From: an uncultured cyanobacterium
GTDB taxonomy: Bacteria > Cyanobacteriota > Cyanobacteriia > Pseudanabaenales > Pseudanabaenaceae
Assembly: GCA_963703315.1 (NCBI GenBank)
Contig: OY969811.1
Span: 3,072,001 to 3,136,000, forward strand
Length of the DNA stretch: 64,000 nucleotides
Reading direction: 5' to 3'
Made by a program: the position numbers and the translations under genes. The notes below the pieces were generated by a model that made no database searches, was not told the DNA's origin, and saw only the letters and a program-made list of their open reading frames with translations. Positions 2,870 through 7,154 of this stretch are shown here, in pieces; within the stretch, counting starts at the first letter, position 1; every line of letters starts with the position of its first letter.

Positions 2870-3068
2870 GAGATTCCTCTACACCAATTAAATCCTAGTA
2901 GACAAATTTAGCTGGCAAATAATGGCTGACAGAATATCATGGACTGGCGTAATTGCAATGACTTTTTCAGTCTTTTTCCGATATTTTTAGGACATCTGTC
3001 GCCGTAGTGTCATTTTTTATTCGTACCCATAGAATAGAACTGTAGATACTGTCTTGAGTACCAAAAAG

Positions 3069-4055
3069 TCAAGAGGGAATTTGAACAAAATTTGGGTCGA
3101 AAGAACGCTGAGACTTGAGAACGCCAAAGACCTGTCGTAACAGCTTGTGCATGACAGCCCCAATGACAGACATTTTGGACTTACCCTTAGCCGTAAGGCG
3201 AGCGCAGAAAGCAGCAATCGGCAAATTATAACGACGGGCAACAATCGCAGGCATAAACAAAGCTTTACGCAAACGCGAATTACCAATTTTAGATAAACGT
3301 GGCTTACCATGAATCGAAGAACCAGATGAGAACTCACGGGGAGTTAAACCCGCAAAAGCTGCCAGTTGATCAGCAGTATCAAAGGCAGAAATATCCCGAA
3401 TTTCCGCCAGTAATATAGTTGCGGTCAGTTCAGCAATACCAGGAATAGAAGTCAACAAATCCCGTTGAGATTTCAAATGAGGGTGTTGATCAAAGTGCTG
3501 ACGGATCAATTTTTTGGTCATCTCAATTTGCTCTTTGAGAAAATCAATGTGAGCATTAATTGCCTCAACCAAAATTGGATCAGCCGTAGCAAGACGATTC
3601 TGCTCTTGCTGCTGCATAGCAGTTAAGCTATCTAAACGATGCACCAATGCTTGTAGTTGCTCAATTTCTAATGCTGGTGGTGTCCAAAGAGCAGGTTTTA
3701 AGGCTGCACAAAATCTAGCAATGACTTTAGCATCAGCACGGTCAGTCTTTGTACGACTTAACTCACTCTTGCCAAAGGCTTTGGGACGGGATGGATTAAC
3801 AATACTTACTTTGTATCCTGCCTCTACTAAGAATCTAGCTAACCCATTGCCGTAAGTGCTGGTAGCTTCCATACAACTATGCAAGTTTGTCACATTTTGA
3901 AGGTTTAGCCATTCTTGTAATTCAGCAAATCCTTCAGGATTGTTGGCAAATACTTTGCTCTTGATTTTGGCGTTGCCTTGGATTAGAGCAACATCAAATT
4001 TGGCTTTGCTGATATCTATTCCTAAAACATCATATACTTCATTGTTATTGTTCAT
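3069..4055 (-). CDS. IS110-family DEDD recombinase/transposase
   Basis: GIDISK, CMEATS, KTDRADA (DEDD), SIPGIA, AFAGLTP-x-SSGSS serine motif, GNSRLRKAL. Confidence 0.97.
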   Translation of the reverse strand: MNNNNEVYDVLGIDISKAKFDVALIQGNAKIKSKVFANNPEGFAELQEWLNLQNVTNLHSCMEATSTYGNGLARFLVEAGYKVSIVNPSRPKAFGKSELSRTKTDRADAKVIARFCAALKPALWTPPALEIEQLQALVHRLDSLTAMQQQEQNRLATADPILVEAINAHIDFLKEQIEMTKKLIRQHFDQHPHLKSQRDLLTSIPGIAELTATILLAEIRDISAFDTADQLAAFAGLTPREFSSGSSIHGKPRLSKIGNSRLRKALFMPAIVARRYNLPIAAFCARLTAKGKSKMSVIGAVMHKLLRQVFGVLKSQRSFDPNFVQIPS

Positions 4056-4094
4056 TGGGGGCAGTCCTCTTGCTAGATTTGTCCATCAAGCAAT

Positions 4095-4290
4095 CAGTGG
4101 TATTGAACTATCCTTGTGAATGCAGGTTTACCCGTTGGGCGACCTCTGATACTGTCCAGTCTTTACTTGTTTCCACTGTTTAAGCAGAGACGACTCTATC
4201 TACAAAACGGGCTTGGTGTCCCTAGGGGCAGATCGAGTTTATCTCTGCTTTTGCTTTTTCGGATTGTAGTAAAGATTTTATCCTTTACTT
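4095..4290 (-). ncRNA. Predicted bridge RNA of IS110 copy 1 (ends approximate)
   Basis: Reverse complement of 4500-4695; left target guide at 4224-4232. Confidence 0.8.
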
Positions 4291-4305
4291 TTCCTCCTAG
4301 ATACA

Positions 4306-4484
4306 AGGGGCAGAGCATTCCCGCAGGAATTTATACATTTTTAGATAATCCTCCTTTGGGAATGCTCTGCCCAAAACCTCGCAACGCAGGGAAAAATTGT
4401 CTGTAAAAGCATAAAGGGCAGAGCATTTGCGGAACGAGATTTGTGTGATGGGTTTTCAAATTGTGGCGCAAATGCTCTGCCCCT
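4306..4484. repeat. GTAG-family REP doublet/MITE made of two hairpins; target of both IS110 copies
   Basis: gggcagagcattccc...gggaatgctctgccc and gggcagagcatttgcg...cgcaaatgctctgccc; removing both IS restores termini GTAGGGGCAGAGCATT...AATGCTCTGCCCCTAC. Confidence 0.85.
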
Positions 4485-4499
4485 TGTATCTAGGAGGAA

Positions 4500-4695
4500 A
4501 AGTAAAGGATAAAATCTTTACTACAATCCGAAAAAGCAAAAGCAGAGATAAACTCGATCTGCCCCTAGGGACACCAAGCCCGTTTTGTAGATAGAGTCGT
4601 CTCTGCTTAAACAGTGGAAACAAGTAAAGACTGGACAGTATCAGAGGTCGCCCAACGGGTAAACCTGCATTCACAAGGATAGTTCAATACCACTG
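4500..4695 (+). ncRNA. Predicted bridge RNA of IS110 copy 2 (ends approximate)
   Basis: Target loop: stem agcagaga 4541-4548 / tctctgct 4600-4607, guides TCTGCCCCT 4558-4566 and TGTAG 4586-4590. Donor loop: stem cagtgg 4612-4617 / ccactg 4690-4695, guides ACAGTATC 4635-4642 and ACAAG 4673-4677. Confidence 0.8.
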
Positions 4696-4735
4696 ATTGC
4701 TTGATGGACAAATCTAGCAAGAGGACTGCCCCCCA

Positions 4736-5722
4736 ATGAACAATAACAATGAAGTATATGATGTTTTAGGAATAGATATCAGCAAAGCCAAATTTGATGT
4801 TGCTCTAATCCAAGGCAACGCCAAAATCAAGAGCAAAGTATTTGCCAACAATCCTGAAGGATTTGCTGAATTACAAGAATGGCTAAACCTTCAAAATGTG
4901 ACAAACTTGCATAGTTGTATGGAAGCTACCAGCACTTACGGCAATGGGTTAGCTAGATTCTTAGTAGAGGCAGGATACAAAGTAAGTATTGTTAATCCAT
5001 CCCGTCCCAAAGCCTTTGGCAAGAGTGAGTTAAGTCGTACAAAGACTGACCGTGCTGATGCTAAAGTCATTGCTAGATTTTGTGCAGCCTTAAAACCTGC
5101 TCTTTGGACACCACCAGCATTAGAAATTGAGCAACTACAAGCATTGGTGCATCGTTTAGATAGCTTAACTGCTATGCAGCAGCAAGAGCAGAATCGTCTT
5201 GCTACGGCTGATCCAATTTTGGTTGAGGCAATTAATGCTCACATTGATTTTCTCAAAGAGCAAATTGAGATGACCAAAAAATTGATCCGTCAGCACTTTG
5301 ATCAACACCCTCATTTGAAATCTCAACGGGATTTGTTGACTTCTATTCCTGGTATTGCTGAACTGACCGCAACTATATTACTGGCGGAAATTCGGGATAT
5401 TTCTGCCTTTGATACTGCTGATCAACTGGCAGCTTTTGCGGGTTTAACTCCCCGTGAGTTCTCATCTGGTTCTTCGATTCATGGTAAGCCACGTTTATCT
5501 AAAATTGGTAATTCGCGTTTGCGTAAAGCTTTGTTTATGCCTGCGATTGTTGCCCGTCGTTATAATTTGCCGATTGCTGCTTTCTGCGCTCGCCTTACGG
5601 CTAAGGGTAAGTCCAAAATGTCTGTCATTGGGGCTGTCATGCACAAGCTGTTACGACAGGTCTTTGGCGTTCTCAAGTCTCAGCGTTCTTTCGACCCAAA
5701 TTTTGTTCAAATTCCCTCTTGA
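4736..5722 (+). CDS. IS110-family DEDD recombinase/transposase (same protein as copy 1)
   Basis: Identical 328-aa translation in the ORF track. Confidence 0.97.
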   Translation: MNNNNEVYDVLGIDISKAKFDVALIQGNAKIKSKVFANNPEGFAELQEWLNLQNVTNLHSCMEATSTYGNGLARFLVEAGYKVSIVNPSRPKAFGKSELSRTKTDRADAKVIARFCAALKPALWTPPALEIEQLQALVHRLDSLTAMQQQEQNRLATADPILVEAINAHIDFLKEQIEMTKKLIRQHFDQHPHLKSQRDLLTSIPGIAELTATILLAEIRDISAFDTADQLAAFAGLTPREFSSGSSIHGKPRLSKIGNSRLRKALFMPAIVARRYNLPIAAFCARLTAKGKSKMSVIGAVMHKLLRQVFGVLKSQRSFDPNFVQIPS

Positions 5723-5864
5723 CTTTTTGGTACTCAAGACAGTATCTACGTTTTTGTTGCGATAAATCACTGATGGTGCAATAGGTAAGCTTTCGTGAAA
5801 ATGCTTTGATAGTAAGGACTTGCAGCTTTATTCCAAAGAAATCAAAAAAAACATGCTCAAGGTA

Positions 5865-5893
5865 TTGACAAACCTTTTGTAAATCTCCATAAT
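5865..5893 (+). promoter_or_regulatory. Sigma70-type promoter upstream of tRNA-Asp
   Basis: TTGACA 5865-5870, 17-nt spacer, CATAAT 5888-5893. Confidence 0.75.
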
Positions 5894-5982
5894 AAGGAGC
5901 GCTTAAATAAAGAAACGCAAAAACCGCGCTGCAAACCAGTTGGTAGCAAGCAATTCTTTAAATAAAGTTTAAGCAAAAATTT

Positions 5983-6056
5983 GGGTTCGTAGTTCAATTG
6001 GTTAGAGCACCGCCCTGTCACGGCGGAAGTTGCGGGTTCGAGCCCCGTCGAACCCG
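5983..6056 (+). tRNA. trnD: tRNA-Asp(GTC)
   Basis: Acceptor GGGTTCG/CGAACCC, D-arm tagttcaattggttagagc, anticodon arm ccgcc-ct-GTC-ac-ggcgg (GTC 6017-6019), T-loop GTTCGAG; CCA not encoded. Confidence 0.97.
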
Positions 6057-6083
6057 TTCTAGATAAGAATTTTAATAAGAATT

Positions 6084-7154
6084 TTATTTATCATCAGACC
6101 ATCCTAAAAGATTAGATAGCCAACCACGTTTTTGTGGCGGTGCAATAAGTGGCTTTTTTGTGGAATTTGGCTTAGGCAATTTTTTCGCAGTTGCGCTTTG
6201 AGCAGAATTAGGATTGCTCAGATCCTTGATGTGTTTTAATGCCAATGGCTCCTGCGGATTAATCTGAAGCGATCGCATCAGGCTAACTTTTGCCATTTGG
6301 GGCTGATCAATATTTTTGTAAACCACACCGAGCATGGCGTGACATTTGCTACTGTTTTTATCGAGTTGCAAAATCTCGCGCAAATCCTTGAGGGCAGCTT
6401 TCCAATCACCCTGACTCATGTAGATTTCACAAATTTTGAGGCGGTCAGCGATCGCGCTCGGATCTCTTGGCTCAATTCTGGTCTGGATTATCGTTTCATC
6501 GGAAGATGGCGAATTAGGAGATTTGTGACTTGATGAAGAGGAAGTAGGATAAGCGTAACTAGATTTTGCAAGTGATTGGGGATAGGTGGGCATCACCAGT
6601 GGTTTCTGCACCATCGGTTCCAGTACAGGTGGCATATCGGGATCGCCATATTGGTAGCCTTCCTTATAAAGGATATACACCAAATTTAGTTCACTGATCT
6701 GGGCTGTATATTCGAGAATATTATCTAGAGATTGATATTGTAATTTTGCGATCGCGGAAACTGAACGCTCGTAATATCCATCATTAGGAGCTAGCATAAA
6801 CTCACAGGCTAAAGCCGAATGAATTTGAACATTACGCGATTTTTGCATCAGCCGCTTAGCTAGTAACTTAAAGATCCCTTGATAAGCCTTGCGTTCTTCC
6901 TCTTTCATGAGAATGTCGTAGGCAGGATTGACCAGCTTTGCCAAATACTGAGTTGCTACAGCTTTTTCTTTAGCCGAAAAGCCATATACGTCAGGGTGCA
7001 AAATACGAGCAATACTCAGATAGACATGACGAATGTAAATGGGGCTGGTGATAATTGGCAAGCCCAAGGCAGCGTAGTAGTCATGATTGAACTGACTAAT
7101 GCCTCGATTGATGCGGATAAGCTGGAGATTTTGCTCCTTGGGCAGTTGATTCAT
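6084..7154 (-). CDS. J-domain (DnaJ-like) protein with C-terminal TPR
   Basis: DYYAALG...LHPD...VNPAYDIL J-domain; TPR-like helices near the C-terminus. Confidence 0.85.
   Translation of the reverse strand: MNQLPKEQNLQLIRINRGISQFNHDYYAALGLPIITSPIYIRHVYLSIARILHPDVYGFSAKEKAVATQYLAKLVNPAYDILMKEEERKAYQGIFKLLAKRLMQKSRNVQIHSALACEFMLAPNDGYYERSVSAIAKLQYQSLDNILEYTAQISELNLVYILYKEGYQYGDPDMPPVLEPMVQKPLVMPTYPQSLAKSSYAYPTSSSSSHKSPNSPSSDETIIQTRIEPRDPSAIADRLKICEIYMSQGDWKAALKDLREILQLDKNSSKCHAMLGVVYKNIDQPQMAKVSLMRSLQINPQEPLALKHIKDLSNPNSAQSATAKKLPKPNSTKKPLIAPPQKRGWLSNLLGWSDDK

What the first reader, a model, noticed from the sequence alone, without database searches (positions are those of the whole stretch)
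4483..4735. IS110 non-coding end encodes a complete, decodable bridge RNA whose four guides match target and donor DNA
Seen: the empty target rebuilds as TCTGCCC-CT-AC[A/G] and the RE-LE circle junction as ACAGTAT-CT-TGTAT. The 253-nt left end holds two internal-loop hairpins. Loop 1 (stem agcagaga/tctctgct, inner ggg/ccc) carries TCTGCCCCT (4558-4566), a 9/9 match to the left target plus core. It also carries TGTAG (4586-4590), the reverse complement of CTACA: 5/5 for copy 1 and 4/5 for copy 2. Loop 2 (stem cagtgg/ccactg, inner aggt/acct) carries ACAGTATC (4635-4642, left donor) and ACAAG (4673-4677, reverse complement of CTTGT). Established: this is the architecture of IS621-type bridge-RNA-guided DEDD recombinases; from memory the donor 14-mer equals that of IS621, which needs verifying. 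Inference: this is a natural cyanobacterial orthologue retargeted to a local REP, and a candidate programmable recombinase.
Basis: partly seen in the sequence, partly recalled or inferred. Interest (0 to 1): 0.92.

Follow-up and report, generated by a model that had tools for sequence, protein, structure and literature searches.

The report
IS621-like insertion sequence with bridge RNA
This is a cyanobacterial relative of the E. coli element IS621 whose left end encodes a complete guide ("bridge") RNA matching both its own ends and its insertion site, so it is a clear new example of a mechanism described in 2024, not a new mechanism.

Summary
Window 4483-5747 (+) is one of seven near-identical copies of a 1263-bp IS110-family element. 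Its recombinase is 42% identical to IS621, and all five catalytic residues align. The left end folds into two internal-loop stem-loops, supported by compensatory changes across 15 orthologues.

LTG 4558-4566 equals left target plus core (9/9). RTG 4586-4590 complements CT-ACA. LDG 4635-4643 equals the IS621 LDG. RDG is 4673-4677.

All 7 copies have CT on both sides and AC[A/G] on the right. Five of 7 have exactly TCTGCCC on the left. Five empty TCTGCCCCTAC sites remain, all at the edge of a REP-like repeat. Across orthologues the LTG changes with the left flank. The donor 14-mer equals that of IS621.

No RNA ends, DNA circles or recombination activity could be shown. Bridge RNAs have been known since 2024, and a cyanobacterial representative already sits in the IS621/ISCro4 cluster of the discovery paper. 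Verdict: real and well decoded, a new member of a known kind, of moderate-to-low interest. Two side observations in relatives are more unusual.

The parts
4483..5747 (+). IS copy 2: core CT, LE, recombinase gene, RE, core CT (1263 bp plus a second core)
   Evidence: It is one of 7 copies. Only 2 of 1265 alignment columns vary among the copies.
3044..4307 (-). IS copy 1, head-to-head with copy 2. Its bridge-RNA region is 4067-4295 on the minus strand.
   Evidence: R1 hit of 266.6 bits.
4308..4482 (.). 175-bp REP-like doublet between the two copies. Both outer arms (GGGCAGAGCATT / AATGCTCTGCCC) served as left targets.
   Evidence: inverted repeat I3; 79% identical to the spacer of the second head-to-head pair. 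One search finds 44 hairpin units and 127 arms in the genome.
4476..4484 (+). Left target (TCTGCCC) plus core CT of copy 2
4485..4489 (+). Right donor (TGTAT), the first bases of the LE
   Evidence: Invariant in 15 of 15 aligned LEs.
4496..4529 (+). 5' stem-loop of the bridge RNA
   Evidence: In one search, helix 2 has 4 of 7 pairs with changes on both sides.
4540..4608 (+). Target-binding loop hairpin: outer stems 4540-4549/4599-4608 and 4552-4555/4594-4597, inner stem 4568-4570/4579-4581
   Evidence: In one search, helix 3 has 13 of 14 pairs with changes on both sides.
4558..4566 (+). Left target guide (TCTGCCCCT), identical to left target plus core, so it would pair with the bottom strand
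   Evidence: It covaries with the left flank across orthologues.
4586..4590 (+). Right target guide (UGUAG), complementary to CT-AC-A. U4586 faces A (4 copies) or G (3 copies, wobble).
   Evidence: Only GUAG is conserved across orthologues.
4591..4592 (+). TBL handshake guide (AU), complementary to donor positions 7 and 6 (T, A). Same letters as IS621 A81/U82.
4612..4695 (+). Donor-binding loop hairpin: stems 4612-4617/4690-4695, 4629-4633/4680-4684 and 4645-4648/4663-4666, apical hairpin 4650-4660
   Evidence: helices 5-9. R1 aligns this part to the IS621 LE (E 0.001).
4635..4643 (+). Left donor guide (ACAGTATCA), 8/9 to ACAGTAT-CT. The same nine letters stand in IS621.
4673..4677 (+). Right donor guide (ACAAG), complementary to CT-TGT
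   Evidence: CAAG is invariant in 15 of 15 LEs.
4678..4679 (+). DBL handshake guide (GA). G4678 is complementary to target position 7 (C). A4679 does not pair with position 6.
   Evidence: The first position pairs with flank t7 in 12 of 15 LEs, with covarying cases L018 (T:A) and L034 (C:G).
4697..4720 (+). 3' hairpin between the DBL and the start codon. It is absent from IS621 and has no trailing U-run.
   Evidence: (helix 10: 4 of 8 pairs with double changes; no terminator-like site).
4736..5722 (+). Recombinase gene, 328 aa. The catalytic residues are D14, E63, D105, D108 and S244.
5719..5724 (+). TTGACT, candidate -35 box of a promoter rebuilt across the RE-LE circle junction. It overlaps the stop codon.
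   Evidence: Read. Present in all 20 complete right ends listed (window and Pseudanabaena/Chamaesiphon-type relatives); the IS621 end L031 has TTGCAG instead. Its function is inferred.
5739..5747 (+). Left donor (ACAGTAT) plus core CT at the right end, followed by right target ACG at 5748-5750

Best explanation
Window 4483-5747 is an intact and probably recently active IS110-group insertion sequence of the IS621 type. The host is a HIP1-rich cyanobacterium, and the closest relatives of the element are in Pseudanabaena. The element's left end encodes a bridge RNA.

The proposed mechanism follows IS621. The element excises as a circle whose RE-LE junction reads ACAGTAT-CT-TGTAT. That junction brings a -35 box in the RE (TTGACT) next to a -10-like box at or just inside the LE, and this drives transcription of the LE RNA.

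The RNA has a 5' stem-loop, a target-binding loop, a donor-binding loop and an extra 3' hairpin. [quoted passage not shown] A tetramer of the DEDD/Ser recombinase cuts after the CT core (nucleophile S244). It exchanges top strands, aided by the handshake guides AU (4591-4592) and G (4678), and then resolves the junction.

Shown here: the anatomy, the guide-DNA matches in 7 copies, covariation of the stems and of the LTG and handshake guide with flanks across orthologues, and the conserved catalytic residues. Inferred from IS621: the circle, the junction promoter, RNA production and binding, the chemistry and the programmability.
For: Protein:
- Pfam PF01548 (8.5e-27) and PF02371 (1.4e-26).
- PDB sequence hits only to the ISCro4 (3.5e-76) and IS621 (7e-73) recombinases.
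- 42% identity to an annotated IS621-family transposase, with D14, E63, D105, D108 and S244 aligned to IS621 D11, E60, D102, D105 and S241.

Copies:
- Seven copies, 7 DEDD genes and 7 RNA-model hits, with no orphans.
- Only 2 variable columns among the 7 copies.

Target:
- Seven of 7 copies are flanked by CT on both sides with AC[A/G] on the right.
- The left target is TCTGCCC in 5 of 7 copies and TCTACCC in 1. That single A faces the LTG G, an rG-dT wobble. The same wobble is seen at the IS621 copy L031 and at L012. The Hiraizumi 2024 passages report one non-canonical TBL pair, G53 with bottom-strand T11, which I take to be the same position.
- TCTGCCCCTAC occurs 5 more times, unoccupied (1.2 expected), always in the context aatgcTCTGCCCCTAC.

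RNA structure:
- On 15 LEs, 74% of cells pair, against 33-46% with partners slid.
- 33 of 54 pairs have changes on both sides, and 0 of 500 shuffles reach the observed score.

Guide-flank covariation:
- With the register read by eye for three rows (L032, L033 and L034; shifts the first two), 13 of 15 LEs match their own left flank plus core at 7 or more of 9 positions, across 10 different LT sequences. As aligned, own pairs average 5.3 of 7 and other pairs 2.3 of 7.
- The DBL handshake base pairs with flank position 7 in 12 of 15 LEs. L018 (U:A) and L034 (C:G) differ from the usual G:C.

Likeness to IS621 (L031):
- Same donor ACAGTAT-CT-TGTAT, same LDG ACAGTATCA, same GTAGAT, and CAAGG.
- A model built from the Pseudanabaena-clade LEs hits the LEs of distant orthologues: L032 3.5e-10, L037 4.7e-7, L035 1.4e-5, L036 1.2e-4. 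It hits only the DBL part of IS621 (E 0.001).

Promoter: no sigma-70-like promoter lies upstream of the RNA on the + strand in the integrated copy. This fits a junction-dependent promoter.
Against: - No direct evidence of RNA. The runs that could be laid were assembled contigs of RNA libraries, which cannot show starts, ends, strand or level. Run X5 holds pieces identical to 4626-4787 and to parts of the gene, but DNA carry-over is not excluded.
- No RE-LE circle junction was seen. The 14-mer occurs 0 times in the genome and no such joint appeared.
- RTG pairing beyond GUAG does not covary. L008 and L010 have ACT against UGUAG, and L012-L014 have ACC against AGUAG. The claimed 5-nt RTG is therefore firm for only 4 nt, which is also the IS621 wild-type RTG length (Durrant 2024, legend passage).
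- The LDG matches the core at 1 of 2 positions (CA against CT), as in IS621.
- The -10 box at the position used by IS621 reads TATCTA, which lacks the final T. The alternative TTGACT-N18-TATCTT spans the junction. Neither was tested.
- Two orthologue copies sit at sites that their own LTG does not match: L010 (3 of 9) and L023 (6 of 9).
- One copy in this genome sits at TATTCCC (5 of 7).
- Rfam 15 has no matching family, so no curated model could be applied.
- The full-length model alignment to IS621 itself failed. Only the DBL matched.
Confidence: 0.92

Rival explanations
1. The element is a fossil. The guides are real relics of a bridge RNA, but the copies no longer move. They would be copies preserved or spread by duplication of host DNA.
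For: No circle junction and no proven transcript were found. Four of the 7 copies lie in two similar head-to-head arrangements, which at first sight could be a segmental duplication. The -10-like box in the LE is imperfect.
Against: - All 7 copies have intact 328-aa frames and are identical apart from one substitution and one C-run length.
- The two head-to-head loci have different outer flanks, and their spacers are only 79% identical (142 of 180 columns). They are therefore independent insertions, not a duplication.
- All seven sites have distinct flanks.
Confidence: 0.06
2. The LE RNA, if made, mainly regulates recombinase expression as a leader or antisense target. The matches to the flanks would be by-products of site-specific protein recognition, not RNA guidance.
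For: This was the older view of IS110 non-coding ends, cited in Durrant 2024 (passage). The extra 3' hairpin at 4697-4720 and the variable C-run just before the ATG could affect translation.
Against: - The LTG changes in step with the left flank across 10 different target sequences while the protein stays related. A protein-only reader does not explain this.
- The handshake base covaries with target position 7.
- The homologous IS621 RNA is shown experimentally to guide recombination (Durrant 2024 and Hiraizumi 2024, passages).
Confidence: 0.02

Closest known systems
IS621 (E. coli), the bridge-RNA-guided recombinase of Durrant et al. 2024 and Hiraizumi et al. 2024
   Same: - Same domain pair and catalytic residues.
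- Same donor 14-mer ACAGTAT-CT-TGTAT, same LDG ACAGTATCA, same RTG core plus handshake GTAGAT, same CT core, and a right target beginning AC.
- Same order of 5' stem-loop, TBL and DBL in the LE.
- It also inserts at the edge of REP sequences (title of Choi 2003, seen in the reference list).
   Different: - Only 42% protein identity.
- The left target is TCTGCCC instead of ATCGGGC or ATCAGGC.
- The LE is 251 nt instead of 191 nt, with a longer 5' region and an added 3' hairpin.
- The RDG has A where IS621 has G opposite donor position 12, giving a canonical pair instead of G-T.
- The second DBL handshake base is A (unpaired) instead of U.
- The host is a cyanobacterium.
ISCro4 / IS622 (Citrobacter rodentium), engineered for human-genome rearrangement (Perry et al. 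2025 preprint, passages)
   Same: Best solved-structure sequence match (9t56, 3.5e-76). Same family and architecture.
   Different: ISCro4 is 88% identical to IS621 according to that preprint, so it is about as distant from this element as IS621 is. The activity of the present element is untested.
REP-targeting IS110 elements of Pseudomonas putida (ISPpu9, ISPpu10)
   Same: Multiple identical copies inserted into one conserved repeat family (abstracts seen in the listing).
   Different: They are a different branch of the family. ISPpu9 carries an extra small-RNA gene downstream of the transposase. No sequence comparison was made here.
IS1111-group elements with seekRNA or bridge RNA in the right end
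   Same: DEDD recombinase with an RNA guide.
   Different: In those elements the RNA lies in a long RE and the ends carry 7-17-bp subterminal inverted repeats (Durrant 2024, passage). Here the RE is 23 nt after the stop codon and the RNA lies in the LE.

Membership tests
IS110 family, IS110 group (IS621-type bridge recombinase system) | N-terminal DEDD (RuvC-like) domain and C-terminal Tnp domain | tested here: met
   PF01548 at 94.3 bits (cut-off 29) and PF02371 at 93.1 bits (cut-off 21.3).
IS110 family, IS110 group (IS621-type bridge recombinase system) | Catalytic D, E, D, D and serine nucleophile (IS621 D11, E60, D102, D105, S241) | tested here: met
   D14, E63, D105, D108 and S244 are invariant columns in alignment A2. 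The residue list comes from Hiraizumi 2024 (passage).
IS110 family, IS110 group (IS621-type bridge recombinase system) | No terminal inverted repeats; the same core dinucleotide (CT) on both sides of the element | tested here: met
   Seven of 7 copies read CT|TGTAT...ACAGTAT|CT.
IS110 family, IS110 group (IS621-type bridge recombinase system) | Long LE and short RE, with the RNA encoded in the LE | tested here: met
   The LE is 251 nt and the RE is 23 nt after the stop codon.
IS110 family, IS110 group (IS621-type bridge recombinase system) | Two internal-loop hairpins (TBL, DBL) conserved in structure | tested here: met
   (fold with the guides kept open); 74% of cells paired against 33-46% slid, and 33 of 54 pairs with double changes.
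IS110 family, IS110 group (IS621-type bridge recombinase system) | [quoted passage not shown] | tested here: met
   LTG 9/9, LDG 8/9, RTG 5/5 or 4/5 plus wobble, RDG 5/5. The rule is from Durrant 2024 (passage).
IS110 family, IS110 group (IS621-type bridge recombinase system) | Guides covary with the target across orthologues | tested here: met
   For the LTG, 13 of 15 LEs match at 7 or more of 9 positions across 10 different targets. The RTG beyond GUAG does not covary.
IS110 family, IS110 group (IS621-type bridge recombinase system) | Handshake guides 3' of the RTG and RDG | tested here: met
   AU at 4591-4592 complements donor positions 7 and 6. G4678 complements target position 7. Twelve of 15 LEs pair, with two covarying cases.
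IS110 family, IS110 group (IS621-type bridge recombinase system) | Sigma-70 promoter rebuilt across the RE-LE junction | tested here: inconclusive
   TTGACT in the RE lies 18 nt from the junction-spanning TATCTT. Alternatively TTGGTA lies 17 nt from TATCTA in the LE. Both were read. No promoter lies upstream in the integrated copy. There are no expression data.
IS110 family, IS110 group (IS621-type bridge recombinase system) | RNA is expressed and bound by the recombinase | not testable with these tools
   Only contigs of RNA libraries were available. They cover the LE but cannot prove transcription.
IS110 family, IS110 group (IS621-type bridge recombinase system) | Circular intermediate; guide swaps redirect insertion | not testable with these tools
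   The junction 14-mer is absent from the assembled genome. Raw DNA reads or a bench assay are needed.
IS621 bridge RNA (by covariance model) | Significant model-level match between this LE and the IS621 RNA | tested here: inconclusive
   Rfam 15 has no such family. The in-session model R1 matches only the DBL of IS621 (E 0.001), but matches the full length of four other distant LEs.

The most novel reading that the evidence does not exclude
Relatives of this element show two behaviours that I did not find described. I made no dedicated literature search for either: the only texts seen were the search listings and the half-match preprint's abstract and section list.

(a) The DNA that encodes the LTG is by construction a copy of left target plus core, so every copy carries a half-target about 82 bp inside its own left end. 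In relatives this site appears to be used. Two DNA metagenome contigs with different unique flanks read flank-LT|CT|LE(1-~73)-LTG|CT|LE start. RNA-library contigs from two further studies show the same join as an 81-82-nt cycle. In one of them its depth is 331, against roughly 2-10 on the other contigs laid on the IS.

(b) A sibling element (L010) sits at a site matched 9 of 9 by the LTG of a co-resident, different element with the same donor ends (L018), and only 3 of 9 by its own LTG. This suggests natural mobilisation in trans.

If real, bridge-RNA elements self-target and cross-mobilise in nature.
Probability: 0.3. Interest if true: 0.55.

Novelty: new member of a known kind. Interest (0 to 1): 0.33.

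Why it matters
- It is a cleanly decodable natural bridge-recombinase system from a cyanobacterium. It keeps the IS621 donor, core and right-target rules at only 42% protein identity and carries a different left-target guide. That amounts to a natural reprogramming of one guide segment.
- The genome offers a built-in readout: 5 occupied and 5 empty perfect sites, plus wobble and mismatch insertions that show what the system tolerates in vivo.
- It could serve as a native tool for cyanobacterial genome engineering, or as one more orthologue to screen.
- It does not change the understanding of the mechanism. Bridge RNAs were predicted in 85.7% of IS110-group elements (Durrant 2024, passage), and a cyanobacterial protein already represents the IS621/ISCro4 cluster in that paper's Supplementary Table 1 (row seen).

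Tried and rejected
- Rfam 15 scan of 2900-6100 at E up to 1: no bridge-RNA family. The only hits were a tRNA, chance sub-threshold matches to PhrS, and mir-3688 on the REP hairpin.
- blastn of the element against complete E. coli genomes: no match. IS621 was reached instead through a protein search of plasmids.
- MAFFT alignment of six distant LEs (A3): too poor in the TBL region to build an independent model, so it was dropped. The model R1 was built from the close clade instead, so its hit on the window itself follows from its construction.
- Laying RNA-library runs X5, X16, X17 and X19. All four are assembled contigs, so they give no starts, ends, strand or levels. Uncovered parts mean nothing. 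No RE-to-LE joint was listed.
- Pattern search for the LTG-to-LE-start join in 71 genomes of the same family: 5 hits. All are chance matches with no IS sequence around them, at about the rate of the reversed-pattern control.
- Searching the MAG that holds L010 for more copies: only one copy of each type is assembled, so the trans-mobilisation idea could not be extended.
- My first script for the handshake base picked wrong CAAG sites. It was replaced by the column-based count.
- The G-to-A change at element position 74 (window 4556) in the copy at the TCTACCC site was considered as a compensatory guide change and rejected. It lies 2 nt outside the LTG and not opposite the changed target base.
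- Earlier notes of this scan: none for this genome.

Full report
**What is there.**
Window 4483-5747 (+) and 3044-4307 (-) are two copies of one insertion sequence, head-to-head and 175 bp apart. The genome is a single 4.57-Mb contig with 16,462 GCGATCGC (HIP1) sites, so the host is a cyanobacterium. It holds seven copies of the element. They differ at only two of 1265 aligned columns. One copy has a G>A change at element position 74. Two copies have a C-run of 6 instead of 5 just before the start codon. Each copy has an intact 328-aa gene. The genome contains 7 DEDD domains and 7 hits of the RNA model, with no orphans and no other IS110-family member.

**The protein.**
It carries PF01548 and PF02371. 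Its only relatives among solved structures are the ISCro4 (3.5e-76) and IS621 (7e-73) recombinases. An annotated 'IS110-like element IS621 family transposase' from an E. coli plasmid (L031) is 42% identical. The five residues that Hiraizumi et al. 2024 name as catalytic (D11, E60, D102, D105, S241; passage) align with D14, E63, D105, D108 and S244.

**Ends and target.**
- Every copy reads LT-CT|TGTAT...ACAGTAT|CT-RT.
- The right target begins AC in 7 of 7 copies, followed by A in 4 and G in 3.
- The left target is TCTGCCC in 5 of 7 copies, TCTACCC in one and TATTCCC in one.
- The empty site TCTGCCCCTAC occurs five more times (1.2 expected from composition), always as aatgcTCTGCCCCTAC.
- That context is the outer edge of a roughly 65-bp palindromic repeat, GGGCAGAGCATT...AATGCTCTGCCC. 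The genome has 44 hairpin units and 127 arms with at most one mismatch.
- Of the 32 exact arms, 5 are occupied, 5 are empty but carry CTAC, and 22 lack the CTAC that follows the target.
- Two loci carry a repeat doublet with an IS at each outer edge. Their spacers are 79% identical and their outer flanks differ, so they are independent events.

**The RNA.**
Kept free of intra-loop pairing, the LE folds into four parts:
- a 5' stem-loop (4496-4529);
- a target-binding hairpin (4540-4608);
- a donor-binding hairpin (4612-4695);
- an extra 3' hairpin (4697-4720).

On an alignment of 15 LEs whose recombinases are 42-97% identical to the window's, 74% of cells pair, against 33-46% when partners are slid. 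Thirty-three of 54 pairs show changes on both sides, and no shuffle of 500 reaches the observed score. The structure was derived from the window sequence, which favours it somewhat over the slid controls.

**Guides.**
The published rule (Durrant et al. [quoted passage not shown] The 3' side pairs with the top strand, and the core is included in all four guides. The element fits this rule:
- LTG UCUGCCCCU equals LT plus core (9/9).
- LDG ACAGUAUCA equals LD plus core at 8/9. The same nine letters stand in IS621.
- RTG UGUAG complements CT-ACA. U4586 faces G as a wobble in the three ACG sites.
- RDG ACAAG complements CT-TGT.

AU at 4591-4592 complements donor positions 7 and 6, the same letters as in IS621. 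G4678 complements target position 7.

The 9-mer and 8-mer are far beyond chance (0 joint occurrences in 200,000 shuffles). The 5-mers are not significant alone.

**Orthologues.**
Relatives were fetched from Pseudanabaena, Chamaesiphon, Phormidium, Leptolyngbya and Kovacikia genomes or bins, and from enterobacterial and Deinococcus plasmids.
- The LTG differs between elements and follows the element's own left flank. Examples are TAAACCC, ATTGCCC, ATTATGC, ACCGCGA, ACCCAAC, GGACATC and CAACTTC.
- With the register read by eye for three rows (shifts two of them), 13 of 15 LEs match at 7 or more of 9 positions. The exceptions are L010 (3/9) and L023 (6/9).
- Three independent A-for-G differences (this genome's TCTACCC copy, L012 and IS621 L031) are all rG-dT wobbles.
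- The DBL handshake base pairs with flank position 7 in 12 of 15 LEs. It changes to U in L018 (target A) and to C in L034 (target G).
- The RTG beyond GUAG does not follow the flank. This agrees with the 4-bp wild-type RTG of IS621 (legend passage) and with the natural mismatch at target positions 12-14 noted by Perry et al. (passage).

**Comparison with IS621.**
It is printed as the IS621 donor in PMC13396178 (passage) and can be read from L031. IS621 and this element share the donor, the core, a right target beginning AC, the LDG and GTAGAT. They differ in the left target, in LE length (191 against 251 nt) and in the added 3' hairpin. The in-session covariance model of the close clade finds the LEs of four distant orthologues over their full length. 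It finds only the DBL of IS621. Rfam has no family for this RNA.

**Promoter.**
No sigma-70-like site precedes the RNA in the integrated copy. After circularisation, TTGACT (5719-5724) would lie 18 nt before a junction-spanning TATCTT. It is present in all 20 complete right ends of the window and its Pseudanabaena- and Chamaesiphon-type relatives; the IS621 end L031 has TTGCAG instead. Alternatively, TTGGTA would lie 17 nt before TATCTA at LE positions 3-8, the position of the IS621 -10 box. In Chamaesiphon, TTGACT lies 17 nt before TATCCT. These readings are mine and are untested.

**What is not shown.**
Transcription, RNA ends, circles and activity are not shown. The only runs that could be laid were contigs of RNA libraries. 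X5 has pieces identical to 4626-4787 and to parts of the gene, which is weak support at best.

**Side observations in relatives.**
- RNA-library contigs from two studies join 4560 back to 4479, that is LTG directly followed by the LE start. In X19 the contig length (111 nt) fits a cyclic 31-mer unitig of period 81. In X16 the depth is 331, against roughly 2-10 on the other contigs laid on the element.
- Two DNA metagenome contigs with different flanks show the same arrangement.
- It is absent from this genome and from 71 genomes of the family.
- L010 sits at a site that matches the LTG of the co-resident L018, not its own LTG.

**Verdict.**
It is a new member of a known kind. Bridge RNAs are predicted for most IS110-group elements (passage). 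A cyanobacterial protein already represents the IS621/ISCro4 cluster in Durrant's Supplementary Table 1 (row seen). A full-text search for IS110, bridge RNA and cyanobacteria found only two unrelated papers. The supplements of the bioRxiv preprints could not be seen and may list cyanobacterial orthologues.

Noticed in passing
Relatives only: runs X16 and X19 laid on window 4479-4560; L046 and L047 (last ~170 nt in the reverse-complement orientation printed, i.e. locus positions ~1-170): The LE start (window 4479 onward) follows directly after the LTG (4560), giving an 81-82-nt cycle or tandem. It is seen in RNA-library contigs of two studies (depth 331 in X16, against roughly 2-10 on the other contigs laid on the IS). 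It is also seen in two DNA metagenome contigs with different flanks. It could be an insertion into the LTG-coding DNA of another copy, a tandem duplication or a minicircle. It is absent from this genome.
   Followed up: partly
L010:1247-1500 and L018:1258-1500 (same metagenome bin): L010 lies at ACCGCGA|CT, which matches the LTG of the co-resident, 69%-related L018 at 9 of 9 positions and its own LTG (GAAACCCCT) at only 3 of 9. Both elements share the same donor ends, so L010 may have been mobilised in trans.
   Followed up: partly
window 3044-5747 and genome 2714875-2717575: Two independent head-to-head IS pairs each flank a ~175-bp REP doublet. The spacers are 79% identical. Four of the 7 copies are in such pairs.
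   Followed up: yes
window 4729-4734: The C-run directly before the start codon has 6 C in 2 copies and 5 C in the other 5. Relatives have a different sequence there.
   Followed up: no
genome 3868924 (+) copy, left flank: This is the one copy with two true left-target mismatches (TATTCCC). Its flank reads CAGTAT four bases upstream of the core, the same six letters as the end of the left donor. This may be coincidence.
   Followed up: no
window 4556: G>A is the only substitution among the 7 copies. It occurs in the copy at genome 2716312, which sits at the TCTACCC site. It lies 2 nt 5' of the LTG and is not compensatory.
   Followed up: yes
L015:1025-1500: This Chamaesiphon copy has about 220 bp of unrelated sequence inserted in the target-binding hairpin of its LE.
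   Followed up: no
window 5982-6057: tRNA-Asp (GTC) lies 235 bp downstream of copy 2.
   Followed up: yes
window 4308-4372: The REP hairpin gives sub-threshold Rfam matches to a plant microRNA family on both strands (31.8 and 28.1 bits; gathering score 84). These are artefacts of the long AT-rich hairpin.
   Followed up: yes
window 4116-4406 (+) and 4456-4674 (-): ORFs of 96 and 72 aa run antisense through the two LEs. They are mirror images created by the inverted IS copies, with no sign of being genes.
   Followed up: no
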